Shown here in pieces: positions 1 through 43,648 of a stretch of DNA of 45,333 bases. The notes beneath the pieces are model-generated. The model saw only the letters and a program-made list of their open reading frames with translations. It was not told the origin of the DNA and made no database searches. Source of the DNA: Deltaproteobacteria bacterium (GTDB lineage Bacteria > Desulfobacterota > Syntrophia > Syntrophales > Smithellaceae); contig DSAV01000102.1 of assembly GCA_011046295.1 (NCBI GenBank), positions 1 through 45,333 of the forward strand. Reading direction: 5' to 3'. Positions within the stretch are counted from its first letter, which is position 1. Every line of letters starts with the position of its first letter. The translations under genes were made by a program, and so were the position numbers.

Positions 1-209
1 CCAGCTAATTTCCACATTTCATTCAATTCTTTTCATGTTTCATTAAATGATTATTAGCAGGAAGGGGGTTATTGTGTCTTTTTCTGACCAACGGTATACT
101 TTAATATTCAATAATATCAGTATATTATAATTTATTATTATTTTCTAATCATTTTGGCATGATCTTTCCATTATCTAAGGGCAAATAGATAAGAAGGAGG
201 CAACAGATC

Positions 210-485
210 ATGAAAAAGACATTAGGAACAATGATGGTAGCGGCGGTGGTGGTTGGCTTAACCGCAACTTTTGCTTTTGCCGAATACGCGGCGACAGCAG
301 CAGGCGCTTTCCCTTACTTCCAGTTTGGTTGCCTGGTAGTTGGCGGTTTGATTGTCGTTTCTTTAAAACGTAAATTCGAGCAGATGTATACCACGGAAGC
401 GGTCGGTGTTTTCGCTCTATACACTGTTTTGATGGCTCTTTTCACCAATCCGGTGATTGAAGCGGTCAAAACAATGGTCAGCTAG
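210..485 (+). CDS. small exported or membrane protein, function unknown
   Basis: 91-aa ORF with an AAGGAGG RBS at 194-200. It has a signal-like N-terminus (MKKTLGTMMVAAVVVGLTATFAFA) followed by two hydrophobic segments. No family recognised. Confidence 0.4.
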   Translation: MKKTLGTMMVAAVVVGLTATFAFAEYAATAAGAFPYFQFGCLVVGGLIVVSLKRKFEQMYTTEAVGVFALYTVLMALFTNPVIEAVKTMVS

Positions 486-527
486 GATAAAGAAAAAGAA
501 CAAATCTGAAGAAAGGGGGAACAGGTC

Positions 528-767
528 ATGCAGGCAACGCAAAAGACACAACATGAAAAGTATGCAACTTTCGGTGGAGTACTGATGCTTTCCGCCTGGG
601 GGTTCGCGATGGTCATTGCTTCTTTCCTGTTCCTCTACGCCGGGCATTTGCTCGACGGCATCCTGGGCACGGCGCCCAACTTCATGCTGGGCTTCTTCCT
701 GCTGGCAATCTTTTTGTGCATCATGCGCTTCTACCAGGAAGCATGGAAAAAAATAAAGGATGTCTGA
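528..767 (+). CDS. AtpZ/AtpI-like small two-TM membrane protein (tentative)
   Basis: 79-aa ORF with a purine-rich RBS (aaggggga). It has two hydrophobic helices around GHLLDGILGTAPNFMLGFFLL, which resembles the G-x-llD-x-lGT-x-P-x-f core of the ATPase_gene1/AtpZ family. No atp genes are adjacent. Confidence 0.35.
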   Translation: MQATQKTQHEKYATFGGVLMLSAWGFAMVIASFLFLYAGHLLDGILGTAPNFMLGFFLLAIFLCIMRFYQEAWKKIKDV

Positions 768-886
768 TATCTCCCCCTCCTCACATAACCGCGAAAACAT
801 GATCTGAGAGTAGCCCCCCTTGAAGCAACGGCTGCAAGGAAAGGTAATAATTAAAAAAATCATTATAAACAAGAAATCAGACTATT

Positions 887-1438
887 TTAAATACTTTGAC
901 AAAACATTTTTCCAATCAGGCGAAGTAAGCTTACAAAACATGACGGGGCTTGTTCGTAGCGCGTCGGCACAAAATAAAATATCTTATTTTTCCCGTCAAA
1001 CACTTTCGAATCAATAATGATTATTCGTCGCATGTGATAAGGCGCACTTACAAATATCGCCGATTCCATATTATATTCGTCCATAGTTATGAGCGCTTCA
1101 ATCAACTAAAGATGCGTATTCTCGTATACACGCGACAGCCAATAATCACTTCTTACCTCTCGGGTCAAATTTGAAGTTGTTTTAAATTCCTGTGCCGTGT
1201 TCATATTCATAATTTTATTATAAGCAGGGATAGTCATATAGCCGGCCAGCCCTTCGTTGGTTAAACCACTTACTTCTTTTTTATGCCCGCTGAAGTCATG
1301 ACCCAGTATAAACACTATCGCTTCCGCTTTTTCAACATCGGATGAATAAAGCAAAAAGCGCGGCAAGCAAACCATGCCTGTGGCCAAAACGGCAATGGAT
1401 ATCATTAAGACAATTGCACATCTCCCCGGTTTTGTCAT
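887..1438 (-). pseudogene. DUF218 (YdcF/SanA/ElyC-like) gene interrupted by one in-frame TAG
   Basis: ORFs 1106..1477 and 887..1105 are contiguous in one frame and separated only by TAG (complement of cta at 1106-1108). The joined product reads ...RVYENTHL*LIEALITMDEYNMESAIFVSAPYHMRR..., with the DUF218-like VSAPYHMRR motif downstream of the stop. The likely start is the ATG at 1438 (MTKPGRC..., TM anchor). Confidence 0.55.
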
Positions 1439-1655
1439 GAAAACATCCTTGACATTACAAGTAATTACGTATATCAATCAAATATTATAGACGATATGTC
1501 AATATGCCGCGAATCAAATGAAATGTTTTTTCTGTCGTTTACGTATTAATTAGCAATACCGCTCTTACGAAGTCAAGTCATACAGGCAGGCGGTATTTTT
1601 TATTAAATAATTATAAAGCCGTTTTTGTTATTTTCTCAGGGGTCAAAAATAAAAT

Positions 1656-2729
1656 ATGGATAATTTCTTCATAGAAAATTCCTGTCCCGCTTTAAAAAAC
1701 AACAAGCCTGACACTTGTCTGTATACTTATATTATGGACAGCATCGACCTGGGTATTGTCATTCTAGGCGTAAAAAGGCGGGAAATTATTTTTAAAAATA
1801 AATTTGCTTCCGAGCTTTTTCAGGAAGAAGAAAACAAGCTCGGATACAAAGCTCTTATGACATTGCTTTTACCCGATTACGCCGACGTTCCGACAAAAGA
1901 TATTATCGGCAAAACCAATACACTTTGGCATAAAAGCCGTCTTCTGGGTTACACACCTTACATGATTTCGGATGATTTCATCTGGGTTATCATAAGAGAT
2001 ATAACAGAAAGAAGCCGCCTGGAATCCATTGCGGAAGCAGTCAGCTCCATGGAAAATATAAGCTACATTTTTTCCGGCATCCGCCATGAACTGGGAAATC
2101 CCATAAATTCCATAAAAATGACCCTGAGTGTCCTCAAAAGAAATCTCAGTCATTATTCGGTAAGCGCCGTGGAGAGGTTTGTGGATCGCGCGATGACGGA
2201 AATATCCCGCGTAGAGTTCCTTCTGCAGGCACTAAAAAATTTCAGTCTGTTTGAAAACCCGGATATACAGGATATTGAAATCGAAGATTTTCTGACTCGA
2301 TTCATTTCGTTGATCTCCAGCGACATGAATCAGGCAGGAATTAAAATCAGCCATGTATTAGTCCCTCCTGCGGAAAAAATCAGCGCGGATCCGCGCCTTT
2401 TGCACCAGGTTATCCTCAACCTGATAACCAATGCGACAGATGCTCTGCTGAACTGTGACAATAAACAAATAATGATCAGGGCCGAAAAGCAAGAAGGATT
2501 TGTTGCTATTGCCATTGAAGACAACGGAATGGGGATGACAGAGGAAGAACAAACTAATCTTTTCAAGCCTTTTTACACGACAAAACCTCACGGAACCGGC
2601 CTGGGTTTAATGATTGCCTTAAAAATGGTAACGCTCATGAAGGGCAATATGGAAGTTAAAAGCTATAAAGACATAGGAACAAAAGTCACCGTCTTCATTC
2701 CTGAAGGCAAGGATTATGGGCACAGTTAA
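1656..2729 (+). CDS. cytoplasmic sensor histidine kinase (PAS-like N-terminus, HisKA, HATPase_c)
   Basis: H-box FSGIRHELGNPINSI, N-box NLITNATDAL, G1 DNGMGM and G2 GTGLGL. No TM segments. The 3' end overlaps the next gene by 14 nt. Confidence 0.85.
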   Translation: MDNFFIENSCPALKNNKPDTCLYTYIMDSIDLGIVILGVKRREIIFKNKFASELFQEEENKLGYKALMTLLLPDYADVPTKDIIGKTNTLWHKSRLLGYTPYMISDDFIWVIIRDITERSRLESIAEAVSSMENISYIFSGIRHELGNPINSIKMTLSVLKRNLSHYSVSAVERFVDRAMTEISRVEFLLQALKNFSLFENPDIQDIEIEDFLTRFISLISSDMNQAGIKISHVLVPPAEKISADPRLLHQVILNLITNATDALLNCDNKQIMIRAEKQEGFVAIAIEDNGMGMTEEEQTNLFKPFYTTKPHGTGLGLMIALKMVTLMKGNMEVKSYKDIGTKVTVFIPEGKDYGHS

Positions 2730-4098
2730 AAGAAATATCCTTGTTGTCGATGACAACGATATTTTCTGCGAATCTGTTCGTGACATTCTTCGTGACGAAG
2801 GTACTGAAGTTTTTACCGCCAATACGGGAAAAGACGGCCTGAAAATCTGTCAGAATTCAAAAATTGACGTTGTTATCCTGGATCAGAAGCTTCCCGATGC
2901 CGAAGGTGTATCTCTCTGCCCTTCAATATTACAGCAAAATGACCAGGCAAAAATAATCTTTGTCACTGCTTATCCAAGTTTCAGCAACGCGGTGGAGGCA
3001 ATTAAAGTAGGCGCTCATGATTATCTTTCCAAGCCTTTTGAAATGGCCGAACTGGAACTTACCGTAAAACAAGCTTTTCGCACACAGGAACTCGAAAAAA
3101 CGGAACAAATTCTTAATTACCACGACAGCAAGGAAAGCGAAGAAATCGGTCTTATCTCCGGAGGGGGAGTATTTGAGGAAATTATAAAAATGATTGACTT
3201 GGCAGCCACAAGCGACGCGCCGGTTCTCATTACCGGCGAAACCGGTACCGGCAAAAATGTTGTCGCGCGCGCAATTCATCATAAAAGTAATTTGCCCAAA
3301 AAACTTTTTTTGACAACAAATTGCGCCGCCTTTCCGGAAAGCCTTATTGAAGCAGAATTATTTGGTTCGGAAAAAGGCGCTTTTACCGGTGCTATATCGC
3401 TGCGCCGCGGTATTTTTGAACTTGCTGACGGAGGAACTCTTGTTTTAGATGAAATCGGTTCCATGCCTATTCATTTACAATCAAAGTTATTAGGAGTACT
3501 GGAAGAAAAAAGGATTCGCCGTGTAGGCGGTGAAAATTTAAAGCCCATAAATGTCCGCGTAATTGCCATATCAAACAATGATCTGGAAGAAGCGATAAAA
3601 ACTAAACAGTTCCGTGATGATCTCTACTACCGGCTTGGCGTAATTCGCATTCATATACCGCCGCTTCGGGAAAGAAAACAGGACATCCCAAAATTATGCG
3701 AATATTTTATCGGAAAAATGACCAAAAACTCAAGTATCAGAATTCCCGAACCGGAACTCGACAGATTATTGGAATACAAGTGGCCCGGAAACGTCCGTGA
3801 GCTGAAGAACGTTATCGAAAGGGCACTGATTGTTCAACACGGAAATATTCTGAAGCCTTCTCAAATGCTGAACAGCGGCCATAGTTTTTCATCTTTTTCC
3901 ATTATAAATGATCAGGATAAGGGAGATAAAATTGAAACAATGGAGGCCGTGGAAAAGCGACACATCAAAAACGCTCTGATAAAATATCATGGCAATTACT
4001 CACAAACTGCCCGGTCTTTAGGCGTTTCTCTTTCCACCTTAAAGAGAAAAGTTAAAACCTATCAACTCGCTACTATAGGCAAAAATGATAACCCCTAG
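2716..4098 (+). CDS. sigma-54-dependent response regulator (NtrC/PilR-type enhancer-binding protein)
   Basis: REC domain (VVDDND...VILDQKLPD...SKP). AAA+ sigma-54 interaction domain with Walker A GETGTGKN, the GAFTGA loop (EKGAFTGA) and Walker B VLDEIG. C-terminal Fis-type HTH (QTARSLGVSLSTLKRK). Confidence 0.9.
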   Translation: MGTVKRNILVVDDNDIFCESVRDILRDEGTEVFTANTGKDGLKICQNSKIDVVILDQKLPDAEGVSLCPSILQQNDQAKIIFVTAYPSFSNAVEAIKVGAHDYLSKPFEMAELELTVKQAFRTQELEKTEQILNYHDSKESEEIGLISGGGVFEEIIKMIDLAATSDAPVLITGETGTGKNVVARAIHHKSNLPKKLFLTTNCAAFPESLIEAELFGSEKGAFTGAISLRRGIFELADGGTLVLDEIGSMPIHLQSKLLGVLEEKRIRRVGGENLKPINVRVIAISNNDLEEAIKTKQFRDDLYYRLGVIRIHIPPLRERKQDIPKLCEYFIGKMTKNSSIRIPEPELDRLLEYKWPGNVRELKNVIERALIVQHGNILKPSQMLNSGHSFSSFSIINDQDKGDKIETMEAVEKRHIKNALIKYHGNYSQTARSLGVSLSTLKRKVKTYQLATIGKNDNP

Positions 4099-4099
4099 G

Positions 4100-4122
4100 T
4101 CAAAATGACCTAGTCATTTTGA
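4100..4122. promoter_or_regulatory. perfect inverted repeat TCAAAATGAC-N3-GTCATTTTGA: candidate activator binding site and/or hairpin ending the kinase-activator operon
   Basis: The 10-bp arms at 4100-4109 and 4113-4122 are exact reverse complements. The repeat starts 2 nt after the activator stop codon, and its centre is about 78 bp upstream of the GG of the sigma-54 promoter. Confidence 0.4.
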
Positions 4123-4187
4123 TACTCAATTAATTGTCATCATCTTCTAAATTACGTATATCATTGATTATACAGCATTTTTATTTT

Positions 4188-4203
4188 TGGCATGACACTT
4201 GCT
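4188..4203 (+). promoter_or_regulatory. sigma-54 (-24/-12) promoter
   Basis: TGGCATgacacTTGCTt matches the TGGCAC-N5-TTGCW consensus with correct GG-N10-GC spacing. It lies 80 nt upstream of the ATG at 4284 and directly downstream of a sigma-54 activator gene. Confidence 0.65.
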
Positions 4204-4283
4204 TTTGTTTTTAATAAAAGCGTTGGTTAATTCTTTTTTATTAAAGAATAGAAAACTAAATCAAACAAAGATGGGAGATAATT

Positions 4284-5603
4284 ATGATTAGCGCGGCAAC
4301 TAATTTTGAATCCCTCAGACAAAGAACTGCTGCTTCGCCAGGTGACAATTTCCTGAAAGGAAAAACTTCACGTGTGGGCGAAGTCCTTATCGTCGATGAC
4401 GAAGAGCCCTTTGTTTTGAGCCTCGCGGACGGGTTAAGTGTTTATAAAAACTTTTTTAACTTGCGAACAGCGCCAAACGGGGCGGAAGCAGTAAAAATTT
4501 TAAAATTGTCCACGATTGACCTGGTTATCACTGATCTGAGCATGCCCAAAATGGATGGCTTTGAGCTTCTTGCCTACATGAACAGAAACTATCCTAAAAT
4601 ACCTGTTATTTTAATGACTGCTTACGGAACCCCAAAAATAGAAGAAATTGTTCAAAATATGGGGATTTTCCGTTATCTTGAAAAACCTCTCGATATTAAT
4701 TCCATCGCCGACAATATTTTCGACGCTCTGGGAATTAAAACATCACCGGCAGAAGCACTAACACAGGCATCAGACCAAAAACGTGAAGCAGGATCGACAC
4801 AACGTTTTGCTATTTCTACCGAAAAGATGATTCCAAAGCCCGATGATGATGCAGAGCCGGAAGCAGCGACAAAAACATCCGCAACTTTTGGTTCCCGTAC
4901 CAGCATATCTCTATCTGATTTGGAAAAGATAAAAGACGAAGCACGGAAAAAACAGGCAGCCAAGGGTAAGGCCATGAAGCCCTCGGCCGCGGCAGAAAAA
5001 GATGCCGCGGATGCTGCGGAAAAAAGAGCGATACTGGAAGCAAAAGCCAGGGCGGAAGCCGAAAGGATAGCTCGTGAAGAGGCAGAACGTAAGGCCCAGG
5101 AAGCCGAGGAAAAAGCAATACAGGAGGCCCGCGCCCGTGAAGAAGCGGAAAGAAAGGCCAGAGAAGCAGAAGAAAAGGTGGAAAAGGCCAGACAGGAAGC
5201 GCTCGCCCGTGAAGAAGCGATGAAAAGGGCAAGAGCGGAAGCGGAAACTCAGGAAAAAGCCAGACAGGAAGCGCTCGCCCGTGAAGAAGCCGCGCGAAAA
5301 GCCAAAGAAAAGGAAGCCGAGGAAAAGGCCAGACAGGAAGCGCTCGCCAGAGAAGAAGAAGTCAAAAAGGCAAGAGCGGAAGAAGAAGCTCAGGAAAAGG
5401 CCAGACAGGAAGCACTCGCCAGAGAAGAAGCCGCACGCAAGGCCAAGGACGAAGAAGAAGCAAAAGAAAAGGCACGGCAAGAAGCGCTCGCCCGTGAAGA
5501 AGAGCGCAATACAAGGCAACAGGCAGATGCTGAAACAAAAGAAGCGGCGCGAAAAGAGTTAAAATCAGAAACCAAAGAAAGGCTGAGTGCCTGGAAAAAA
5601 TAA
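4284..5603 (+). CDS. response-regulator receiver domain fused to a long A/E/K/R-rich repeat (coiled-coil-like) tail; FrzS-like architecture
   Basis: The REC domain has the acidic pocket VDDEE, phospho-acceptor context VITDLSMP, and LMTAYG and EKPL motifs. A low-complexity linker follows, then about 200 aa composed almost only of A, E, K, R and Q, with EKARQEALAREE recurring five times. GGGAGA RBS. Confidence 0.8.
   Translation: MISAATNFESLRQRTAASPGDNFLKGKTSRVGEVLIVDDEEPFVLSLADGLSVYKNFFNLRTAPNGAEAVKILKLSTIDLVITDLSMPKMDGFELLAYMNRNYPKIPVILMTAYGTPKIEEIVQNMGIFRYLEKPLDINSIADNIFDALGIKTSPAEALTQASDQKREAGSTQRFAISTEKMIPKPDDDAEPEAATKTSATFGSRTSISLSDLEKIKDEARKKQAAKGKAMKPSAAAEKDAADAAEKRAILEAKARAEAERIAREEAERKAQEAEEKAIQEARAREEAERKAREAEEKVEKARQEALAREEAMKRARAEAETQEKARQEALAREEAARKAKEKEAEEKARQEALAREEEVKKARAEEEAQEKARQEALAREEAARKAKDEEEAKEKARQEALAREEERNTRQQADAETKEAARKELKSETKERLSAWKK
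5181..5505 (+). repeat. five in-frame tandem DNA repeats with 69-72 nt period inside the CDS
   Basis: The unit gaaaaggccagacaggaagcgctcgcc(c/a)g(t/a)gaagaag recurs starting at 5181, 5253, 5322, 5394 and 5466, with only a few substitutions. Confidence 0.8.
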
Positions 5604-5637
5604 ATTACCTAAAATTAACTAAATAGGATGACTGCTT

Positions 5638-6006
5638 ATGAACGTTGCAAAACTAAACGAGACTGTTGAGCTGCTGAAAGAGAATTTAGGCGAAAGTCTT
5701 CTTTGTACAGCAATTGCCATGAATGTTGACGGACAGTCAATTGCCGGGTTTAATTCGACCCCAAAATTCGCCGCTTTGTGTGTCAAGATAATCAAAGTTG
5801 TCAATGACTCCGCTAAAATAGGCGGATTGCCACAAATTGGAAAATATGTTACCTTTGACCTGCAGGAAGACAGGGTTTTAGTCGTATTGCCTCTCGGTGA
5901 ATATATTTGGGGAATTCTTTTAGACAGCAACAAAACACAAATGGGGCTTTTGCTGAACATCGAAATACCCGCGGCAATCGAAGCATTCGCTGAAGCGATT
6001 TCCTAA
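5638..6006 (+). CDS. Roadblock/LC7 (MglB-like) domain protein
   Basis: 122 aa. The pattern LLCTAIAMNVDGQSIAGF...LVVLPLGEYIWGILLD...MGLL fits the alpha-beta-alpha Robl_LC7 layout. It starts 34 nt after the preceding gene on the same strand. Confidence 0.55.
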   Translation: MNVAKLNETVELLKENLGESLLCTAIAMNVDGQSIAGFNSTPKFAALCVKIIKVVNDSAKIGGLPQIGKYVTFDLQEDRVLVVLPLGEYIWGILLDSNKTQMGLLLNIEIPAAIEAFAEAIS

Positions 6007-6099
6007 GAAGATAGCGATTAAAGAATTCAGCAACACCTAATAGGTCAAGACTGTATAATTAATATAAAATTTAAAAAATAATTTCCTACGGAGAAAAAA

Positions 6100-8430
6100 A
6101 TGCGTAAACCAGGTTCATATTCTGCCGGCGCGCAAAAAGATACTCTTTCCAGCGCGCCACAAGTAGAAGAGCTTCTGAAAAATTTAGAATTTCACAAATC
6201 AATTCAAAATATCAACAACCGCATAAACAGCGCGGAAAACATAAAAGAAATAATTGTAGACATTAAAGAAGAGATAAGAAAACTTTTTAATATCGACATC
6301 CTGACAATTTACGCCTTTGACAAAGCGAAAAAAGAACTTTATACCATCCGCCAGGAAGGAGATAATGTCCAGGATATTCGCTTGCTCGTAAATAACTCCT
6401 CAGTCGCCGGTTACGCAGCAAACAACAAGCGGACAATATTGATAAACGACGTCTATGACGAACGTGAGCTGAAAAGATTCAGCGATCAATTAAAATATGA
6501 CCGCACATCGGACAGACAAAGAGGAGTATTGACCGGCCAGGTTCTGGCGATTCCCATCATGTATGACCGTAATATCATGGGAGTGCTGGAAGTGATGACC
6601 CAAAAAGGTGGAGATAAAATAGAAGACTACCGCCAGATTTTTCTTGACGAAATATGTAATGTGCTCGGAATTGCCTTTTACAATCAGGAAAAGTTCAGCA
6701 AGCAGCGCCCCCATTCCAAATTTGATTATTTGATCAGGCAGGGTCGCGTTACCCAGGCGCAAATCGATAAAGTCACGGAAGAAGCGCGTGAAAAAAAAGA
6801 ACCAATTGAAAATATCCTCATTAGTAAATACGAAATCAACAAAGAAGAAGTCGGCATGTGTCTGGCCGAATATCATAATTGCGAATTTATTACCTATAAC
6901 GATAAAATACCTATTCCCGGAGACCTGCTGAAAAATCTCAAAAGGCCTTATTTAAGGCGTGAAATATGGGTTCCGCTGGAAAGGATTGACGGAAAAATCA
7001 GAGTTCTTGTTGATGATCCGACAAATATTATCAAAAAAGATACCATCGAAAATCTCTTAAAGACCAAACAAATCAGATACGATGTTTCGTTTGCCGAAGA
7101 TATTTTGAGATACATCGACCGTTTTTTTGCGGCGCCTCAGGATAGCGCCTCCATAGATGAGATAATCGGGAAGCTGGACCAGGACGAAGAGGTTTACGAA
7201 GAAGAAGACGGCGAAGTCATCACCGAATCACATAGTGTCATCATGCAGTTGGTAAACAAACTCATTAATGAAGCTTATGCCCGCCGCGCATCCGACATAC
7301 ATATTGAGCCGAATACGGACACAAAAAATGTCGATGTCCGTTACCGCGTGGACGGAGAATGCTCGTTGTATCAAACTCTTCCCTACAGTTACCGCGCGGC
7401 AGTTGTTTCCCGCATAAAGATCATGTCCAACCTGGATATTACCGTTAAAAGATTGCCTCAGGATGGAAAAATCAAGTACCGGCGGGCGGGAAGCGAAGAG
7501 CTGGAATTGCGCGTTGCCACCATTCCAACCCAGGGAGGCGTGGAAGATATTGTCATACGTATCCTGGCCAAAGGAACAACCATGCCCCTGGATTCGATTG
7601 CCTTGTCTGAACGCAATTACAAGGAACTGTTCAAAATATTGGAACAACCATACGGAATGATTTTGTGCGTGGGGCCTACCGGCTCCGGAAAAACAACCAC
7701 CCTGCATGCCGGCCTCAAGCATATCAACACCCCGGGCCGCAAAATATGGACGGCGGAAGACCCGGTGGAAATAACCCAACATGGGCTGCGACAGGTTCAG
7801 GTGCAGCCGAAAATAGGCTTTGATTTTGCCGCAGCCATGCGTTCTTTTTTGCGCGCGGACCCGGATGTTATTATGGTTGGCGAAATGCGCGATTTTGAAA
7901 CAGCGAAAATCGGCGTGGAAGCATCGCTTACCGGCCATCTCGTTCTCAGCACACTGCACACAAACAGCGCGCCGGAAACCATTGTTCGTCTTTTGGATAT
8001 GGGCATTGATCCGTTAAATTTCGCCGACGCTTTGTTGGGCATCCTGGCACAAAGACTGGTGCGGACACTTTGCAAAAAATGCAAGGAAGCGTACAACCCA
8101 AGCAAAGAAGAATACGAGGAAATTGCCGAGATATACGGGAAAAAAGCCTTTGATAAGTTGAATATTCGTTATTCAAGCGATTTTAAGCTTTACAAACCTA
8201 AGGGCTGCGAAGCGTGCGGCAACACGGGATACATGGGCCGCATGGGTATCCATGAACTTCTTGTCGCCTCAGATAACATTAAAAGAATGATTCAAAGACA
8301 CGAAAATGCGGAAATTATTCGCGAAGCTGCTATTGAGGAAGGAATGACCACGCTTTTGCAAGATGGCCTGCAAAAAACCCTGCAAGGCCATACTGACGTA
8401 AAGCAGGTAAGACGGGTTTGCATAAAATAA
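6100..8430 (+). CDS. GAF domain - T2SSE_N domain - type II/IV secretion ATPase (PilB/GspE family)
   Basis: The N-terminal ~200 aa are GAF-like (ILTIYAFD...VAGYAANNKRTILINDVYDE...AIPIMYDRNIMGVLEVM). The middle region is GspE_N/MshEN-like (FDYLIRQGRVTQAQIDKV...). The ATPase core has Walker A GPTGSGKTTT, the Asp/His boxes (MVGEMRD, LSTLHTN) and a tetracysteine CKKC...CEAC motif. Confidence 0.85.
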   Translation: MRKPGSYSAGAQKDTLSSAPQVEELLKNLEFHKSIQNINNRINSAENIKEIIVDIKEEIRKLFNIDILTIYAFDKAKKELYTIRQEGDNVQDIRLLVNNSSVAGYAANNKRTILINDVYDERELKRFSDQLKYDRTSDRQRGVLTGQVLAIPIMYDRNIMGVLEVMTQKGGDKIEDYRQIFLDEICNVLGIAFYNQEKFSKQRPHSKFDYLIRQGRVTQAQIDKVTEEAREKKEPIENILISKYEINKEEVGMCLAEYHNCEFITYNDKIPIPGDLLKNLKRPYLRREIWVPLERIDGKIRVLVDDPTNIIKKDTIENLLKTKQIRYDVSFAEDILRYIDRFFAAPQDSASIDEIIGKLDQDEEVYEEEDGEVITESHSVIMQLVNKLINEAYARRASDIHIEPNTDTKNVDVRYRVDGECSLYQTLPYSYRAAVVSRIKIMSNLDITVKRLPQDGKIKYRRAGSEELELRVATIPTQGGVEDIVIRILAKGTTMPLDSIALSERNYKELFKILEQPYGMILCVGPTGSGKTTTLHAGLKHINTPGRKIWTAEDPVEITQHGLRQVQVQPKIGFDFAAAMRSFLRADPDVIMVGEMRDFETAKIGVEASLTGHLVLSTLHTNSAPETIVRLLDMGIDPLNFADALLGILAQRLVRTLCKKCKEAYNPSKEEYEEIAEIYGKKAFDKLNIRYSSDFKLYKPKGCEACGNTGYMGRMGIHELLVASDNIKRMIQRHENAEIIREAAIEEGMTTLLQDGLQKTLQGHTDVKQVRRVCIK

Positions 8431-8512
8431 AAGGGCATATAAAAGTATTACGTCCAAATACGCAGATATTTTCACTGCCCGGCATTTTACTTAAAACATT
8501 TGTTCGGCATCA

Positions 8513-9049
8513 CTAAAAATAATCTGCCGAGAAGACGAAAATCTTTGTTTCTTTTTCCTTCCAGGCATCCGGCGGAAGCCCTGCCTTGTAACAAGTTTCC
8601 CGTAAAAATGTTTCTCTATCCCATCCTTGTTCTATCGCTACCTGGGGCAACAATAATCCGGAGTTATAACCTCGCATAAGATATAAGCCGTGAATGCCTA
8701 CTTTAATCGCATCAATCTCTTCAATTTGTTTCAGCGGACTTAAAACAGAAATCTCAACCGTCAAATCAGGAAGTTCTTCCGGCTTCAGCGAGGGAAATCT
8801 CGGATCATGAAACGCCGCCGCCACAGCCATTTCCTGCACAGTCTCCCAAAGCGGCTTAACCGCCTTTATGTATCCGATGCACCCGCGTAAATGGCCGCTC
8901 TTTTTTATGGTAACAAAAGCGCCGCTCTTTTTATTAAGCGCCTTGGATTCCACGGTTAATTTAGGCATTTCCTTGCTGTTAACCTTGGCGGCAATTGTTT
9001 TTTTTACGATATCCAAAAGGAAGTCTTTTTCTTTCTGAGTCAATTCCAT
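8513..9049 (-). CDS. AMMECR1 domain protein (AmmeMemoRadiSam system protein A)
   Basis: GAFVTIKKSGHLRGCIGYI and HDPRFP motifs are typical of AMMECR1. 178 aa. Confidence 0.85.
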   Translation of the reverse strand: MELTQKEKDFLLDIVKKTIAAKVNSKEMPKLTVESKALNKKSGAFVTIKKSGHLRGCIGYIKAVKPLWETVQEMAVAAAFHDPRFPSLKPEELPDLTVEISVLSPLKQIEEIDAIKVGIHGLYLMRGYNSGLLLPQVAIEQGWDRETFLRETCYKAGLPPDAWKEKETKIFVFSADYF

Positions 9050-9227
9050 GTTGTCATCATCTTAAATATTTTTTTAGTGTAAAATAATTTGTTATTTATA
9101 TTAAAAAATTATCCTTAAAACAAACACGTGAACAATGCTTAATATTTAGCGGATATTATTATAACCTGAGAACTTCAAGATTAGGAAACGCGCAAATAAA
9201 AATATACACCGCCCTTCACAACATATT

Positions 9228-10055
9228 TTACAGATAATAAACAGCTGCCGCGTACCCGACAACAGAGCTTTTATCACCGCTTACATCCCCGGAATCAGCA
9301 TATTTTAATACATGTGATTTTGTCGCCCCCATCTTTTGCGCTACCATTATCGCTGTCGCCATAGGGCCTCCTCCACAGGCCTCGACCGAATTATCATTCA
9401 AACTTCTGAGCAAACCATTGGCATCGGCTTTTTCCAGGTATTTAACGGCATGATTATCTAGCCTTGCTGCTTTTCGATAATCGTGAAAATGAGATAAATC
9501 AGAACTTCCCACAATCAGAATTTTCTTTCCACGCGCGGCTTGCTTAATTGCTTCAGCAAGTTCGCGGCAGATAGTTTCGTTTTGCTCACCCATTACCAAT
9601 GGGACAAAGGAAAAATCACCCAACGCAAACTGCAAAAAGGGTAGTTGAATTTCAATGGAATGCTCCTGCAGGTGCGCGGCGGGCACATCCCGTATGGAAT
9701 CGTTCAAAGACATAATTTTATGGCAAAACTGCTCATCGACAGGAACAATACCCAAAGGAGTTTCATAACCGCCCGAGGGATAAACGGAAACACCGGGAAA
9801 AGCAACCCGGTGACTCGGACCGACGATAATTACAGTGTCATACTCCTTGCTGCTGACAAGTTTATAGGCATGCGCCGCGACTTGCCCCGAATACATATAG
9901 CCGGCATGCGGCGCGACGATACCTTTGATTTCTCCGTTCAATGGAAAATCTGCCACTGAATTAAAATATTTTTCAATATCTTTTCGTAAAGCATCCGGCT
10001 GCCCCGGATACCAGGAGCCCGCTATAACCGCTTTTCTTACTGCCTGTATCTCCAT
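9228..10055 (-). CDS. MEMO1-family protein (AmmeMemoRadiSam system protein B)
   Basis: AGSWYP...IVAPHAGYMYSG...GPSH...SSDLSH motifs of the Memo/extradiol-dioxygenase-like family. 275 aa. It starts 15 nt after the upstream fusion gene. Confidence 0.85.
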   Translation of the reverse strand: MEIQAVRKAVIAGSWYPGQPDALRKDIEKYFNSVADFPLNGEIKGIVAPHAGYMYSGQVAAHAYKLVSSKEYDTVIIVGPSHRVAFPGVSVYPSGGYETPLGIVPVDEQFCHKIMSLNDSIRDVPAAHLQEHSIEIQLPFLQFALGDFSFVPLVMGEQNETICRELAEAIKQAARGKKILIVGSSDLSHFHDYRKAARLDNHAVKYLEKADANGLLRSLNDNSVEACGGGPMATAIMVAQKMGATKSHVLKYADSGDVSGDKSSVVGYAAAVYYL

Positions 10056-10070
10056 GCCAGATCACCCTTT

Positions 10071-12419: not shown

Positions 12420-12470
12420 TATTTTTAATCAGGTATACGCGCATGAAAACCAGGTAATGAAAAATATGGG

Positions 12471-12914
12471 TTAACTATCCATTTTAAACGCCGGAATTTT
12501 GATAAAATGGACGCCTTCTTCCTTTAAGTTTTCTTCCTCCTGGGCAGTTGTTGTGCCTTTTATATTGCGCTTTTCTTCCTCCCCGGAATGAATCTTTAAC
12601 GCAACTTCGGCAAATTTATTACCCACGTCTTCAAAATTTTTATCTACATACTGGTGCAGTACCTGCAAGGCTTTAAGAGGAGAAATTTCTTTTTCCTGAA
12701 GCTTGCCTGCCGCGCGCGAATCCTTTCCCATGATAGTGATAGAAGAAGGAACTATATCTATATTCGAGCTGTTGCAAACCGGGCATGAAATAAGCTTTTG
12801 CGAATTTTGCGAATTCCATGCCTGCCGGTCTTTAAACCATCCTTCAAATTTATGGTTTTTTTCGCATTTTAAATCGTAGATAATCACTTTATTGATACTC
12901 CTGAAAATTAACAC
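12471..12914 (-). CDS. DUF1178 family zinc-ribbon protein
   Basis: IIYDLKCEKNHKFEGWF...CPVCNS is the DUF1178 N-terminal signature. The true start is probably the GTG at 12887 (VIIYDL...). Confidence 0.6.
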   Translation of the reverse strand: MLIFRSINKVIIYDLKCEKNHKFEGWFKDRQAWNSQNSQKLISCPVCNSSNIDIVPSSITIMGKDSRAAGKLQEKEISPLKALQVLHQYVDKNFEDVGNKFAEVALKIHSGEEEKRNIKGTTTAQEEENLKEEGVHFIKIPAFKMDS

Positions 12915-13065
12915 ACTTTAAGCTTAACACTTTGCCACCTAAAATACAATTTGCTATATTAAAAAGAAAATGTGCAAGTCGCTTGGATAATTTTCACAAA
13001 CATTAACACTCAGCAAATAAAAAAGTGGACAATTGAAAATAAATCTTATATCTTGCCTGCCGTGT

Positions 13066-13142
13066 CGGGATGTGGCCCAGCCTGGTAGGGCACTGCGTTC
13101 GGGACGCAGGAGTCGCGCGTTCAAATCGCGCCATCCCGACCA
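13066..13142 (+). tRNA. tRNA-Pro (anticodon CGG)
   Basis: 77-nt cloverleaf. Acceptor CGGGATG/CATCCCG, D-arm GCCC-AGCCTGGTA-GGGC, anticodon arm CTGCG-TTCGGGA-CGCAG (CGG at positions 34-36) and T-arm GCGCG-TTCAAAT-CGCGC. Discriminator A with encoded CCA. It closely parallels E. coli proline tRNA. Confidence 0.9.
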
Positions 13143-13176
13143 TTTCTACGCCATTATCAGCAACATCTCGTTTATT

Positions 13177-14385
13177 TCAGCCGACGACAGACGCCATTCT
13201 GAAGATGGGCAGGTACATGGCAATAATCATACTCCCAACAAGTCCGCCCAAAAAAACAATCATCAAAGGCTCCATAAGCGTCGTCATGGCGCTTACCGTG
13301 GCATCCACCTCGTCATCATAAAAATCAGCTATTTTGCTGAGCATGGCATCAAGCGCGCCCGTCGCCTCTCCCACGGCAATCATTTGCACGACCATGGGAG
13401 GAAATATGGTTGATTGTTCCAACGGCTCCGCGATGGATTGACCTTCACTGATACTCCGGCGTGTTTTCATCAGCGCATCTTCAACAACAACATTGCCGGA
13501 GGTTTTACTGACTATATTTAACCCTTCGAGTATCGGCACGCCGGAAGAGAGCATGGTAGAAAGCGTACGGGAAAATTTCGCCACCGCGACCTTCCTGAGC
13601 AGGTCTCCAAAAAGCGGAAGCTTCAACAACAGGGAATCCATCATCCAACGCCCCTTTTCTGTTTTATAGAACCTGTTGAAAGCAATGTATATCAAAAACA
13701 TAATGGCCAAAATAAACCACCAATAGCTTTGAGCGAAGTTGCTGGCCGCTATTAACACTAATGTGGGGCCGGGCAATTCGCTACCCAAGCCCTTGAACAT
13801 GTTCTCAAACACGGGAATTACTTTGATAAGCAATACGGCAACCACGCCAAGAGAAATGACCAGAACGGCCACCGGATACACCATGGCGCCCTTTACCTTG
13901 CTTTTGAGCTTCATGGCTTTTTCCATATAGCTGGATAAACGCTCCAAAACCACGTCCAAAACGCCCCCCGCTTCACCGGCGGCGATCAGGTTAACGAACA
14001 GCTCATCAAATACCTTGGGATATTTCTTCAACGCATCGGTTAAACTGGTGCCACCTTCTATATCTTCCTTCAATGCATGAATAATTTTGGCAAAAGTTTT
14101 ATTGCTTTCCTGCTGCGACAGCAGGTCCAAGCACTGAATAAGCGGAAGCCCCGCATTTATCATCGTGGAAAAAATACGGCAAAAAACAACAACATTTTTT
14201 TCTTTTACTCCAGGCGCCAAAAAAGGCAGATACTCTTCAATATCTTTGGGCTTCTTTTTGATTTCAATTGATTTAAATCCTTGACGGCGCAAAAGGCCAC
14301 GCAAGGCGAGTTCATCGGTCGCCTCCATTTCTCCTTTTTTTGTCTCGTTTTTTCTTGTTGTTCCTTCCCAGATATAAACCGGCAT
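13177..14385 (-). CDS. pilC: type IV pilus assembly platform protein PilC (GspF family)
   Basis: 402 aa with two T2SSF repeats (FCRIFSTMINAGLPLIQCL and FSRTLSTMLSSGVPILEGL), three TM segments, and AAGEAGG / AVGEATG motifs. Confidence 0.85.
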   Translation of the reverse strand: MPVYIWEGTTRKNETKKGEMEATDELALRGLLRRQGFKSIEIKKKPKDIEEYLPFLAPGVKEKNVVVFCRIFSTMINAGLPLIQCLDLLSQQESNKTFAKIIHALKEDIEGGTSLTDALKKYPKVFDELFVNLIAAGEAGGVLDVVLERLSSYMEKAMKLKSKVKGAMVYPVAVLVISLGVVAVLLIKVIPVFENMFKGLGSELPGPTLVLIAASNFAQSYWWFILAIMFLIYIAFNRFYKTEKGRWMMDSLLLKLPLFGDLLRKVAVAKFSRTLSTMLSSGVPILEGLNIVSKTSGNVVVEDALMKTRRSISEGQSIAEPLEQSTIFPPMVVQMIAVGEATGALDAMLSKIADFYDDEVDATVSAMTTLMEPLMIVFLGGLVGSMIIAMYLPIFRMASVVG

Positions 14386-14492
14386 TTTTTATATCCTTTC
14401 TTTTATTGCGACATCAAAAGTTTTTTTATTATAAGACATCTTTAATCTAAACTCAACAGGTTAAAAACTGGGTTTTAATTACTCATAATTTT

Positions 14493-41711: not shown

Positions 41712-41738
41712 CCATGCACTCCTTAATTATACTTTTAC

Positions 41739-43445: not shown

Positions 43446-43588
43446 TTAATTCTCCGGATAAATATTACCCACACGGATATTTATGCTGGGTACATATTAT
43501 CCATATATCGGCTGCTAATGCAAATGATTTATTGTCTGCATCATAATTTCTTCCGTTATTACAGAAACTTAAAAAGTAACAACGCCGA

Positions 43589-43604
43589 TGGCACAACCCT
43601 TGCT
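43589..43604 (+). promoter_or_regulatory. sigma-54 (-24/-12) promoter for the Spy/ZraP-like gene
   Basis: TGGCACaacccTTGCTt is an exact match to TGGCAC-N5-TTGCW. It lies 48 nt upstream of the ATG at 43652 and is divergent from the kinase-activator operon. Confidence 0.7.
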
Positions 43605-43648
43605 TTATATCAGGCCAAATAAATGAAATTACCTCATAAAGGAGATTA

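What the first reader, a model, noticed from the sequence alone, without database searches (positions are those of the whole stretch)
1656..8430. Sigma-54-wired REC-coiled-coil / Roadblock / GAF-PilB module behind a PilS/PilR-like pair (best candidate for an undescribed motor-control system)
Seen directly: a soluble histidine kinase overlaps an NtrC-type activator by 14 nt. Right after the activator stop there is a perfect 10-bp-arm palindrome, and about 78 bp further a TGGCAT-N5-TTGCT sigma-54 promoter. Three same-strand genes follow with 34- and 93-nt gaps: a receiver domain with a ~200-aa charged repeat tail, a 122-aa Roadblock/LC7-like protein, and a 776-aa GAF + T2SSE_N + secretion ATPase.

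Established knowledge: PilS/PilR pairs normally drive a sigma-54 pilin promoter in Pseudomonas, Geobacter and Myxococcus. Myxococcus FrzS (REC plus coiled coil) and MglB (Roadblock GAP of MglA) set type IV pilus polarity.

Inference: here the usual pilin slot is occupied by a FrzS-like, an MglB-like and a sensor-fused PilB-like gene. No Ras-like GTPase, pilin, PilT or PilMNOPQ gene is present anywhere in the window. This looks like a self-contained, transcriptionally gated control unit for a pilus or secretion extension ATPase, and I do not recognise it as a described system.
Basis: partly seen in the sequence, partly recalled or inferred. Interest (0 to 1): 0.72.

Follow-up and report, generated by a model that had tools for sequence, protein, structure and literature searches.

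The report
Signal-gated Roadblock and pilus-ATPase operon
In one family of uncultured syntrophic bacteria (Smithellaceae), a widespread but unannotated signalling cassette (kinase, sigma-54 activator, receiver protein, divergent Roadblock protein) has gained its own sensor-fused copy of the type IV pilus assembly ATPase, which gives the first genomic hint of what that cassette controls.

Summary
The sigma-54 promoter is real by phylogenetic footprinting: it is kept in all 15 aligned Smithellaceae loci and in 17 of 22 distant loci.

The 122-aa protein hits no Pfam, NCBIfam or PDB sequence model. A confident AlphaFold model (pLDDT 96) still matches Roadblock/MglB structures (TM 0.82-0.84). It belongs to a large unannotated family of 404 representative clusters. 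In most other lineages this domain is the C-terminus of REC-PATAN-linker-Roadblock proteins. Those genes sit behind a kinase/sigma-54-activator pair and a sigma-54 promoter in at least eight lineages, with no ATPase nearby.

Only in Smithellaceae is the arrangement different:
- the PATAN domain is replaced by a repeat-expanded Glu/Lys/Arg/Ala helix;
- the Roadblock domain is a separate gene;
- a diverged duplicate of the Syntrophales GAF-PilB ATPase is co-transcribed.

The FrzS-like, PilS/PilR-like and "self-contained" labels do not hold. A PilC-like gene lies 4.7 kb downstream. No MglA gene lies within 10 kb in any orthologous locus.

Verdict: a new variant of known PATAN/Roadblock pilus-polarity regulators. 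Its function is inferred, not shown. Interest is moderate.

The parts
1656..2729 (+). Soluble histidine kinase: sub-threshold PAS-like N-terminus (aa 23-69), H-box HELGNP at aa 144-149, HATPase_c
   Evidence: Pfam HisKA 31.4 bits and HATPase_c 81.7 bits. PAS_8 scores 18.7 bits, below its 21.8 cut-off. No transmembrane-grade hydrophobic segment. Kinases in module loci of other lineages score better (phmmer E 1e-58 to 1e-78) than the window's own second kinase (2e-24).
2716..4098 (+). NtrC-family sigma-54 enhancer-binding response regulator (REC, AAA+ with GAFTGA at aa 221-226, HTH_8); overlaps the kinase gene by 14 nt
   Evidence: Pfam Sigma54_activat 212 bits, Response_reg 99.5, HTH_8 43.1. 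Best NCBIfam hit is AtoC at 394 bits, below its 714 cut-off. Motif positions.
4100..4122 (.). Conserved dyad TCAAAATGAC-cta-GTCATTTTGA, centred about 78 bp upstream of the -24 element. Candidate activator binding site. An overlapping alternative hairpin (4095-4113) plus a T-rich tail could instead end the activator transcript.
   Evidence: Sequence. Unique in the window. One of only two conserved islands in the intergenic alignment of 15 orthologous loci. Terminator-like alternative pairing.
4188..4203 (+). Sigma-54 promoter, -24 TGGCAT / -12 TTGCT, 80 nt upstream of the receiver gene's start codon
   Evidence: One of two exact matches in the window, 0.17 expected. A site scoring >=10/12 is present in the window and in 15 of 16 Smithellaceae-type loci scanned (16 of 17 sequences) against a background of 0.012 per 300 nt; the exception, L001, is a distant locus whose site was found after the search region was corrected. 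The GG and GC cores are invariant in the alignment. A comparable site occurs in 17 of 22 activator-linked loci from other lineages.
4284..5603 (+). Response regulator: canonical receiver (aa 34-144; VDDE 37-40, ITDLSMP 82-88, LMTAYG 110-115, LEKP 132-135), conserved ATFGSRTS motif (aa 200-207), Glu/Ala/Lys/Arg repeat helix, conserved C-terminal LSAWKK
   Evidence: Pfam Response_reg 84.7 bits and nothing else. Motifs. Tail comparison across 12 orthologues, 439-540 aa long. The receiver matches receivers of REC-PATAN-Roadblock proteins (E 1e-36 to 8e-48) far better than it matches the activators' receivers (about 1e-8).
5098..5503 (+). Tandem DNA repeats (72-nt unit, 5.6 copies; also periods of 141 and 213 nt) that encode the variable-length charged helix
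   Evidence: Tandem Repeats Finder. Repeat number differs between orthologues.
5638..6006 (+). 122-aa divergent Roadblock/LC7-fold protein with no database family
   Evidence: AlphaFold2 pLDDT 96.4, topology a-b-b-a-b-b-b-a. Foldseek matches Asgard Roadblock3 (9jue) and M. xanthus MglB (6hjm, 6h5b, 6izw) at TM 0.82-0.84 and rmsd 1.8-1.9. hhalign against canonical Roadblock C-termini: 59% probability, E 9e-5 over 116 columns. 404 representative relatives.
6100..8430 (+). GAF (aa 46-192) + MshEN (aa 270-345) + T2SSE ATPase (aa 376-772): a PilB-type extension ATPase with Walker A GPTGSGKT (525), DPDVIMVGEMRD (587), TGH (611) and a CKKC...CEAC zinc motif
   Evidence: Pfam. NCBIfam PilB 493 bits (cut-off 675) and GspE 482 bits (cut-off 630). 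Residues 209-770 align with full-length M. xanthus PilB 3jc8 residues 7-557. Motifs. Operon-type orthologues at 71-100% identity occur only in the Smithellaceae group.
13177..14385 (-). PilC/GspF-type platform protein (T2SSF). Possible membrane partner of the ATPase. Linked by regional synteny, not in the operon.
   Evidence: Pfam T2SSF 226.8 bits, two repeats. Found at the same relative position in L004-L007, L009-L013 and L017, but absent from the L002 lineage.

Best explanation
This is a two-tier control unit for an accessory type IV pilus (or related filament) extension ATPase.

Tier 1, transcription. A cytoplasmic PAS-like histidine kinase phosphorylates the NtrC-type activator. The activator probably binds the conserved dyad about 100 bp upstream and opens the sigma-54 promoter at 4188-4203. 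The result is one transcript that encodes the receiver-helix protein, the Roadblock protein and the GAF-PilB ATPase.

Tier 2, protein level. The receiver protein is a second, non-DNA-binding response regulator, probably fed by the same kinase. Together with the Roadblock dimer it acts as an adaptor that recruits, positions or licenses the co-expressed PilB paralogue at the pilus platform (PilC-like gene nearby). The ATPase's own diverged GAF domain adds a small-molecule input.

Evolution. The receiver and Roadblock genes derive from a widespread single protein, REC-PATAN-linker-Roadblock, which always sits behind such a kinase/activator pair. In Smithellaceae the PATAN domain was lost, a repeat-expanded ER/K-type helix took its place, the Roadblock domain became a separate gene, and a pilB duplicate was captured.

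Shown here: the anatomy, the fold, the conservation of promoter and dyad, the synteny and the family relationships. Inferred: co-transcription, phosphotransfer, all protein-protein contacts, and the pilus as target.
For: - Domain content and intact catalytic or signalling motifs in all five proteins.
- The sigma-54 element is conserved in every Smithellaceae-type locus and in 17 of 22 distant activator-linked loci, against a background of 0.012 per 300 nt. It also coincides with the only other activator-adjacent promoter in the window.
- Between the three genes there is no terminator and no conserved promoter, only conserved ribosome-binding sites and start codons.
- The five-gene order is kept in 13 of 13 GTDB species genomes of the clade and in independent metagenome contigs.
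- Roadblock fold at pLDDT 96.4 and TM 0.82-0.84 to MglB.
- Of the 93 longer relatives among the best 150 hits, 63 carry DUF4388/PATAN and 33 also a receiver domain N-terminal to this domain.
- The window's receiver is closest to the receivers of those fused proteins.
- In L032, canonical Pfam Robl_LC7 domains occupy the same post-PATAN slot.
- The ATPase aligns end to end with solved PilB structures. It is a clade-specific duplicate whose GAF region has diverged most (39% identity, against 77-79% in the ATPase domain).
- Published precedents: PATAN domains of cyanobacterial regulators bind the PilB1 N-terminus and PilC (bioRxiv 10.1101/2021.06.11.447907). The charged helical tail of M. xanthus RomR (receiver + linker + tail) binds the Roadblock dimer MglC (PMC10329633).
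Against:
- The ATPase linkage exists in one family-level clade only. In 37 loci from other lineages the cassette has no T2SSE, T2SSF or other recurrent neighbour, so the ancestral output may not be a pilus motor.
- The PATAN domain, the only part with a published PilB/PilC contact, is exactly what the window's protein lacks.
- The dyad overlaps a terminator-like hairpin with some compensatory changes between orthologues. Its role as an activator site is therefore unproven.
- The ATPase scores almost equally well as GspE. No pilin, PilT or PilMNOPQ gene is nearby.
Confidence: 0.5

Rival explanations
1. The Roadblock protein is an MglB-type regulator (GAP or platform) of an MglA-like small GTPase encoded elsewhere in the genome. 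The operon would then be the inducible arm of a GTPase-based polarity switch that sorts the PilB paralogue to one pole, as MglA/SgmX does in Myxococcus.
For: - The best structural matches are MglB, both alone and in complex with MglA.
- MglA-like genes carrying the YTVPGQ signature lie within 10 kb of family members in L001, L029, L053, L032 and L039. In L032 and L039 the GTPase gene is directly upstream of a PATAN-Roadblock gene of this family.
- Earlier surveys found MglA/MglB homologues near PATAN genes (PMC4316618).
- Geobacter annotation already uses the name 'PATAN domain GTPase-activating protein' (PMC11934962).
Against: - No MglA-like gene is in the 45-kb window or within +-10 kb in any Smithellaceae-type locus.
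- The five GTPase-linked loci represent only two independent arrangements among 37 distant loci.
- A profile search for MglA returned no Smithellaceae-named protein among its best 120. That result is uninformative rather than negative.
Confidence: 0.2
2. The receiver and Roadblock proteins act back on their own two-component system, as a phosphate sink and a kinase-binding modulator in the manner of the Streptomyces conservon (kinase CvnA bound by Roadblock CvnB). The pilB duplicate would be a passenger gene that merely shares the promoter.
For: - In most lineages the cassette is only kinase, activator and REC-PATAN-Roadblock, with no recurrent effector gene among 97 neighbours.
- A kinase-Roadblock partnership has a precedent in the conservon (PMC4316618).
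- A sigma-54-induced extra receiver fed by the same kinase is a classic feedback design (inference).
Against: - The ATPase gene has stayed fixed in this position across at least 13 species while its GAF domain diverged. That argues for selection on the linkage.
- PATAN and Roadblock regulators with known functions act on motility machinery rather than on kinases.
Confidence: 0.15
3. The ATPase powers a type II secretion or other non-pilus filament system rather than a type IV pilus. The unit would then gate secretion.
For: - NCBIfam GspE scores 482 bits against 493 for PilB, both below their cut-offs.
- GspE structures are among the best PDB matches.
- Public annotation calls it 'GspE/PulE family protein'.
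- No pilin gene lies nearby.
Against: - Full-length alignment, including the N-terminal MshEN region, is with PilB/PilF (residues 209-770), whereas the GspE matches cover only the ATPase half.
- Neither the window nor the orthologous loci contain gspC, gspD, gspG or other gsp genes.
Confidence: 0.1

Closest known systems
RomR / MglC / MglB polarity module of Myxococcus xanthus
   Same: A response-regulator receiver with a long non-globular linker and a charged alpha-helical tail (RomR) works with a small homodimeric Roadblock protein (MglC, MglB). The module controls where PilB-driven pili form (PMC10329633). The window's 122-aa protein superposes on MglB at TM 0.82-0.84.
   Different: - No detectable sequence relationship: 17-20% identity in the structural alignments, and no Pfam Robl_LC7 hit.
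- No MglA, RomX or RomY gene nearby.
- The genes here form a sigma-54 operon with a dedicated kinase and activator and with the ATPase itself, which is not the Myxococcus arrangement.
- The tail is Glu/Lys/Arg/Ala repeats rather than Pro-rich plus Glu-rich.
PATAN-domain (DUF4388) regulators, including cyanobacterial PatA-type PixG/PixE/LsiR and the Geobacter 'PATAN domain GTPase-activating protein'
   Same: The window's receiver and Roadblock genes are the split, PATAN-less descendants of REC-PATAN-Roadblock proteins. PATAN domains bind the PilB1 N-terminus and PilC. MglA/MglB homologues are known to neighbour PATAN genes.
   Different: - The PATAN domain itself is absent from the window protein.
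- Domain order in relatives is REC-PATAN-Roadblock, not PATAN-REC.
- The Roadblock branch is one that Pfam does not recognise.
- Control is by a sigma-54 two-component pair rather than a chemotaxis-like system.
FrzS (Myxococcus pseudo-receiver + coiled coil)
   Same: N-terminal receiver fold followed by a long helical C-terminal region. A functional link to PilB recruitment is documented for FrzS.
   Different: - The receiver here keeps all phospho-acceptor residues.
- It matches FleR, Spo0F and NtrC, not FrzS.
- The tail composition does not fit a heptad coiled coil.
PilS/PilR and other NtrC-type two-component systems
   Same: A kinase plus a REC-AAA+-HTH_8 activator with GAFTGA drives a -24/-12 promoter immediately downstream.
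   Different: - The kinase is soluble with a PAS-like N-terminus, not the six-helix membrane sensor PilS.
- The promoter serves a response-regulator gene, not a pilin.
- No equivalog cut-off is reached.
c-di-GMP-gated MshE/PilB/PilF ATPases
   Same: MshEN domain + T2SSE ATPase with a tetracysteine motif. The N-terminus serves as a regulatory input.
   Different: - Neither the strict nor the relaxed 24-residue c-di-GMP motif is present in this protein or in any of its 120 closest homologues.
- An extra N-terminal GAF domain is present instead.
Streptomyces conservon (CvnA kinase, CvnB Roadblock, CvnC, CvnD GTPase)
   Same: A histidine kinase is genetically coupled to a Roadblock-fold protein.
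   Different: There is no GTPase and no CvnC here. A sigma-54 activator and a receiver protein take their place.

Membership tests
Roadblock/LC7 superfamily | alpha-beta-beta-alpha-beta-beta-beta(-alpha) fold superposable on solved Roadblock/MglB/LAMTOR structures | tested here: met
   AlphaFold2 pLDDT 96.4, pTM 0.88. Foldseek top 50 hits are all Roadblock, MglB, Ragulator or Rag C-terminal domains, TM up to 0.84, rmsd 1.8-1.9.
Roadblock/LC7 superfamily | Match to Pfam Robl_LC7 (PF03259) at its gathering score | tested here: not met
   No hit even at E<=10. None of the 93 longer relatives hits it at E<=0.01. Profile search of PDB sequences found no Roadblock entry.
Roadblock/LC7 superfamily | Profile-profile similarity to canonical Roadblock domains | tested here: inconclusive
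   hhalign of A3 against five canonical post-PATAN Roadblock C-termini: 59% probability, E 9e-5, in register over 116 columns.
MglB (GAP of MglA) | A cognate MglA-family GTPase encoded next to it or in the same locus | tested here: not met
   No MglA-like ORF in the window or within +-10 kb in the Smithellaceae-type loci. One is present near some distant family members. The genome-wide question was left unresolved.
MglB (GAP of MglA) | Stimulates GTP hydrolysis by MglA; forms a homodimer | not testable with these tools
   Needs biochemistry or a multimer prediction.
FrzS | Pseudo-receiver lacking the phospho-acceptor pocket | tested here: not met
   VDDE, ITDLSMP, LMTAYG and LEKP are all present. 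Nearest PDB receivers are FleR, Spo0F and NtrC; FrzS is not among the 32 hits at E<=1e-8.
FrzS | C-terminal heptad coiled coil | tested here: inconclusive
   The repeat region is 28% Glu, 26% Lys+Arg, 29% Ala and 6.7% bulky hydrophobic residues, with 0.31 i/i+4 opposite-charge pairs per residue. This favours an ER/K single helix. No structure prediction was run.
PilS/PilR | NtrC-type activator (REC, AAA+ with GAFTGA, Fis-type HTH) | tested here: met
PilS/PilR | Multi-pass membrane sensor kinase and a pilin gene as the promoter's target | tested here: not met
   No hydrophobic segment of transmembrane grade. The first gene downstream of the promoter is a response regulator. There is no pilin motif in the window.
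Type IV pilus assembly ATPase PilB | T2SSE ATPase with Walker A and B, Asp and His boxes, a tetracysteine motif and an N-terminal MshEN/GSPII domain | tested here: met
Type IV pilus assembly ATPase PilB | NCBIfam equivalog score (TIGR02538, cut-off 675.65) | tested here: not met
   493.1 bits; GspE scores 482.4 against a cut-off of 630.25.
MshEN c-di-GMP receptors | Tandem 24-residue motif RLGxx(L/V/I)(L/V/I)xxG(L/V/I)(L/V/I)xxxxLxxxLxxQ | tested here: not met
   No match to the strict or relaxed pattern in the protein or in its 120 closest homologues (pattern from PMC5013675). The NCBIfam c-di-GMP motif model scores 19.1 against a cut-off of 38.
PATAN (DUF4388) regulators | Presence of a PATAN domain | tested here: not met
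   No PF14332 hit in the window protein and no phmmer match to a PATAN probe. 63 of 93 longer relatives of the Roadblock domain do have it.
Sigma-54-dependent promoter | GG-N10-GC with TGGCAC-N5-TTGCW context, downstream of an activator gene, conserved in orthologues | tested here: met
   Use by RpoN has not been tested experimentally.

The most novel reading that the evidence does not exclude
The divergent Roadblock dimer and the phosphorylatable receiver-ER/K-helix protein regulate a PilB-type ATPase directly, with no small GTPase involved. This would be a GTPase-independent use of the Roadblock platform in bacteria. By extension, the widespread REC-PATAN-Roadblock cassettes under sigma-54 control in Aminicenantes, Desulfobacterota, Clostridia, WOR-3 and other lineages would be an unrecognised class of inducible pilus-motor regulators.
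Probability: 0.25. Interest if true: 0.7.

Novelty: new variant of a known kind. Interest (0 to 1): 0.5.

Why it matters
Roadblock/MglB and PATAN proteins are the core of the best-understood bacterial polarity and pilus-targeting circuits. They are known mechanistically only from Myxococcus and a few cyanobacteria.

This locus shows three things:
1. A large Roadblock branch (404 representative clusters) is invisible to current domain models.
2. That branch is almost always the output end of a REC-PATAN protein wired to a kinase/sigma-54-activator pair.
3. In one clade the cassette is physically joined to a dedicated PilB paralogue.

The third point gives a concrete, testable hypothesis for the cassette's target. 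An inducible second extension ATPase could therefore bear on how such cells switch surface or partner contact on and off.

Tried and rejected
- **Sequence searches for the 122-aa protein.** Pfam at E<=10, NCBIfam, and PDB phmmer and profile searches returned nothing meaningful. The only hits were spurious matches to designed repeat proteins.
- **First structure prediction.** An alignment of close relatives gave pLDDT 47.7, which was unusable. It worked only after the exhaustive representative search supplied diverse homologues.
- **Genome scan.** A narrower 11-sequence alignment worked.
- **Neighbour survey.** An unbiased Pfam survey of 97 neighbouring genes in distant loci found no recurrent partner. 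The commonest families had 4-6 members, all explained by lineage synteny.
- **MglA in Smithellaceae.** A profile search for MglA was uninformative: the best 120 hits were dominated by 330-aa Aminicenantes-type proteins.
- **Internal promoter.** The window's Robl-pilB spacer contains TGTATAAT, which I considered as an internal promoter. I rejected it because it is not conserved in 13 orthologous spacers.
- **c-di-GMP gating through MshEN.** Rejected; the motif is absent.
- **FrzS and PilS/PilR membership.** Rejected.
- **Dyad: terminator or activator site?** I could not decide.
- **Rfam.** No RNA family in the leader or elsewhere in 1-14500, apart from one tRNA.

Full report
**1. Observation**

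All five ORFs exist as described.
- The kinase (1656-2729) overlaps the activator (2716-4098) by 14 nt.
- Receiver + tail (4284-5603), the 122-aa gene (5638-6006) and the 776-aa ATPase (6100-8430) follow on the same strand, with 34- and 93-nt gaps.

Pfam confirms the domains: HisKA/HATPase_c; Response_reg/Sigma54_activat/HTH_8; Response_reg alone; and GAF/MshEN/T2SSE.

The palindrome TCAAAATGAC-cta-GTCATTTTGA lies at 4100-4122 and TGGCATgacacTTGCT at 4188-4203.
- The dyad is unique in the window even with three mismatches allowed (0.07 expected).
- The exact sigma-54 pattern occurs twice in 45 kb on both strands (0.17 expected). The other copy lies upstream of a ZraP-like gene that is divergent from the window's second kinase/activator pair. 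That copy serves as an internal positive control.

**2. The 122-aa protein**

It has no Pfam, NCBIfam or PDB sequence match.

A word-indexed search found only close relatives, 68-100% identical, plus one at 48%. A structure predicted from that shallow alignment was useless (pLDDT 47.7).

The exhaustive HMMER search of 1.84 billion representatives found 404 relatives at E<=1e-3. With 58 diverse stand-alone members as the alignment, AlphaFold2 gave pLDDT 96.4 and the topology a-b-b-a-b-b-b-a. Foldseek against the PDB returned only Roadblock-fold proteins:
- Asgard Roadblock3 and M. xanthus MglB at TM 0.82-0.84, rmsd 1.8-1.9, 17-20% identity;
- then Ragulator and Rag C-terminal domains.

A profile-profile comparison with canonical Roadblock C-termini from related loci gave a modest in-register match (59% probability, E 9e-5). 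The family is a divergent branch that current models miss.

**3. What the family looks like elsewhere**

Of the best 150 representatives, 57 are stand-alone proteins of about 122 aa. The other 93 are longer and carry the domain at the C-terminus. Of those 93, 63 contain DUF4388/PATAN and 33 also an N-terminal receiver. The usual architecture is REC-PATAN-variable linker-Roadblock. Linkers range from short, to acidic, to Glu/Lys-rich.

A scan of one genome per GTDB species returned 49 loci. My own ORF calling with phmmer probes shows two patterns.

(a) All 13 Smithellaceae/Syntrophaceae genomes, and the metagenome contigs, repeat the window's order: kinase, activator, receiver-tail, Roadblock, GAF-PilB.

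(b) In 22 of the 37 other loci a kinase and a sigma-54 activator flank a REC-PATAN-Roadblock gene. An extra stand-alone Roadblock or a PATAN-Roadblock paralogue is often present. These loci come from Aminicenantes, Desulfuromonadaceae, Desulfobacteraceae, Chrysiogenales, Clostridia-labelled MAGs, WOR-3, other Syntrophales and Deferrimicrobium. The flanking pair is either co-directional or divergent. None of the 37 has a T2SSE gene within 10 kb. A Pfam survey of 97 of their neighbours found no recurrent partner.

The window's receiver domain matches the receivers of the fused proteins at E 1e-36 to 8e-48, but matches activator receivers only at about 1e-8. The sequences are visibly collinear. 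The window's two small genes are therefore a split derivative of the fused protein that has lost PATAN.

**4. Sigma-54 wiring**

A -24/-12 element scoring at least 10 of 12 lies upstream of the receiver gene in every Smithellaceae-type locus. After the search region was corrected for over-extended ORFs, one also appears in 17 of 22 distant activator-linked loci. Background is 0.012 such sites per 300 nt.

In an alignment of 15 orthologous intergenic regions, only two islands are conserved: the dyad immediately after the activator's stop codon, and the TGGCAY-N5-TTGC element.

The dyad region can also fold as CTAGGTCA-aaa-TGACCTAG followed by a T-rich run. Some orthologues show compensatory changes (GGTCA/TGACC, GCTCA/TGAGC, GTTCA/TGAAC). 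A weak terminator for the activator gene therefore cannot be excluded. I favour an activator binding site, because both half-sites are conserved in sequence and the centre lies about 100 bp upstream of the predicted start. This is inference.

Downstream, there is no terminator between the three genes. The Roadblock-ATPase spacer keeps only the ribosome-binding site and the start codon. Co-transcription is the simplest reading.

**5. The receiver-tail protein**

The receiver has the full acidic pocket, the phospho-acceptor Asp, and the Thr and Lys. Its nearest solved relatives are FleR, Spo0F and NtrC receivers; FrzS is not among them.

The tail contains three elements:
- a conserved ATFGSRTS...DLEK.REEAR segment;
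- a block of roughly 24-residue Glu/Ala/Lys/Arg repeats, encoded by 72-nt tandem repeats, whose number varies between orthologues (proteins of 439-540 aa);
- a conserved C-terminal KQKLSAWKK.

With 6.7% bulky hydrophobic residues and dense i/i+4 opposite charges, the repeat block looks like an ER/K single alpha-helix, a spacer of adjustable length, rather than a coiled coil (inference).

The closest functional precedent is RomR. That protein is a receiver plus linker plus charged helical tail, and its tail binds the Roadblock dimer MglC (PMC10329633).

**6. The ATPase**

Residues 209-770 align with full-length M. xanthus PilB, Thermus PilF and Geobacter PilB. GspE matches cover only the ATPase half. 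Walker A and B, the His box and the tetracysteine motif are intact. NCBIfam scores for PilB (493) and GspE (482) are both below their cut-offs.

Homologues fall into two tiers.
- Proteins at 71-100% identity occur only in the Smithellaceae operon.
- A Syntrophales-wide GAF-MshEN-T2SSE group sits at about 63% identity and includes Syntrophus aciditrophicus. There the gene is an orphan among housekeeping genes. In L002, L013 and L014 this second copy lies next to glyS, just upstream of the module.

Between the two copies, the GAF region is 39% identical and the ATPase region 77-79%. The operon copy is thus a clade-specific duplicate with a re-tuned sensor domain.

None of the 120 closest homologues has the strict or relaxed MshEN c-di-GMP motif. 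c-di-GMP gating is therefore unlikely.

A PilC/GspF-type gene (13177-14385, - strand) is kept at the same relative position in most orthologous loci, but not in the L002 lineage. The rest of the window is housekeeping, and it contains no pilin motif.

**7. The small GTPase question**

No MglA-like ORF occurs in the window or within 10 kb in any Smithellaceae-type locus. MglA-family genes (YTVPGQ, NKRDL) do lie near family members in two arrangements:
- In L032 and L039, a 207-aa GTPase gene sits directly upstream of a PATAN-Roadblock gene of this family. It is flanked by REC-PATAN-Robl_LC7 and PATAN-Robl_LC7 proteins that do reach the Pfam cut-off.
- In L001, L029 and L053, a 345-360-aa GTPase and a Mg-chelatase-like gene sit upstream of the kinase.

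This agrees with earlier reports of MglA/MglB near PATAN genes (PMC4316618). A GTPase-dependent mechanism therefore stays open. My attempt to find a Smithellaceae MglA was uninformative.

**8. Interpretation**

The best-supported model is a two-tier control unit.
- The kinase/activator pair switches on a sigma-54 operon.
- The operon's products are a second phosphorylatable receiver with a ruler-like helix, a Roadblock dimer and a dedicated GAF-PilB. The first two act as adaptor or licensing factors for the third at a PilC-containing platform.

The evidence for a pilus-motor target is indirect. It rests on fixed operon linkage in one clade, on published contacts between PATAN domains and PilB/PilC, and on the RomR/MglC/MglB precedent.

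The rivals are set out with their tests in the Rival explanations section:
- an MglB-type role with a distant MglA;
- feedback on the two-component system, in the manner of the conservon;
- a secretion target rather than a pilus.

**9. Novelty**

Each part belongs to a known kind. PATAN-MglB-like fusions are already annotated in Geobacter. The recent review of PilB cofactors mentions neither Roadblock, PATAN nor GAF.

Three things appear to be undescribed in the literature I searched:
- the Pfam-invisible Roadblock branch;
- its near-obligate coupling to a kinase/sigma-54-activator pair across lineages;
- the Smithellaceae variant with a split Roadblock, an ER/K tail and a captured GAF-PilB.

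I rate it a new variant of a known kind, with interest 0.5.

Noticed in passing
window 40347-44167: A second sigma-54 two-component unit: kinase (41739-43445, -; sCache/PAS) and activator (40347-41711, -) lie divergent from a Metal_resist/LTXXQ (ZraP/CpxP-like) gene (43649-44167, +). That gene is preceded by the window's only other exact sigma-54 promoter match (43589-43604). This is the classic zraP-zraSR layout.
   Followed up: partly
window 6100-8430; proteins P0209-P0328: All 120 closest GAF-MshEN-T2SSE homologues, found throughout Syntrophales and including Syntrophus aciditrophicus, lack even the relaxed MshEN c-di-GMP-binding motif. The first motif reads K/R-F/Y-D where RLG is expected. 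The GAF domain may have replaced c-di-GMP sensing in this whole PilB lineage.
   Followed up: partly
L032 6840-10372 and L039 329-1821: A compact cluster encodes REC-PATAN-Robl_LC7, PATAN-Robl_LC7, an MglA-like GTPase (207 aa) and a PATAN-Roadblock protein of the window's family. That makes three Roadblock paralogues around one GTPase in an uncultured Thermodesulfobacteriota MAG.
   Followed up: partly
L001 222-1304, L029 3438-4475, L053 5251-6294: MglA-family GTPases with an unannotated C-terminal extension of about 150 aa (345-360 aa in total). Each is followed by a Mg-chelatase/ComM-like gene and then the kinase-activator-REC-PATAN-Roadblock cassette. Relatives of 326-360 aa dominated the best 120 hits of the MglA profile search, and the few that carried an organism name were from Aminicenantes or Chrysiogenales.
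   Followed up: no
window 10071-12419 (-): A 782-aa ORF whose orthologue in L004 combines a PALP (cysteine synthase-like) domain with cysteinyl-tRNA synthetase domains. It sits next to AMMECR1 (8513-9049) and Memo (9228-10055) genes.
   Followed up: no
window 210-485 (+): A 91-aa hydrophobic protein with a signal-peptide-like N-terminus and no family assignment. It keeps the same position upstream of the module in L002, L004 and L005.
   Followed up: no
protein P0204 (380 aa): One relative carries the Roadblock-like domain at its N-terminus, followed by an Ala/Pro linker and a further C-terminal region. This reverses the usual order. One of the 93 longer relatives hit dCache_1; the tool output does not say which one, so I cannot confirm that it is P0204.
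   Followed up: no
L010 10465-12802 and 17715-18869: In this long-read MAG the GAF-PilB and T2SSF genes are broken into several ORFs. These are probably frameshift errors of the assembly rather than pseudogenes.
   Followed up: no
window 13066-13139 (+): A tRNA gene (Rfam, 62 bits) lies just downstream of the PilC-like gene (13177-14385, - strand), between it and the next gene on that side.
   Followed up: no
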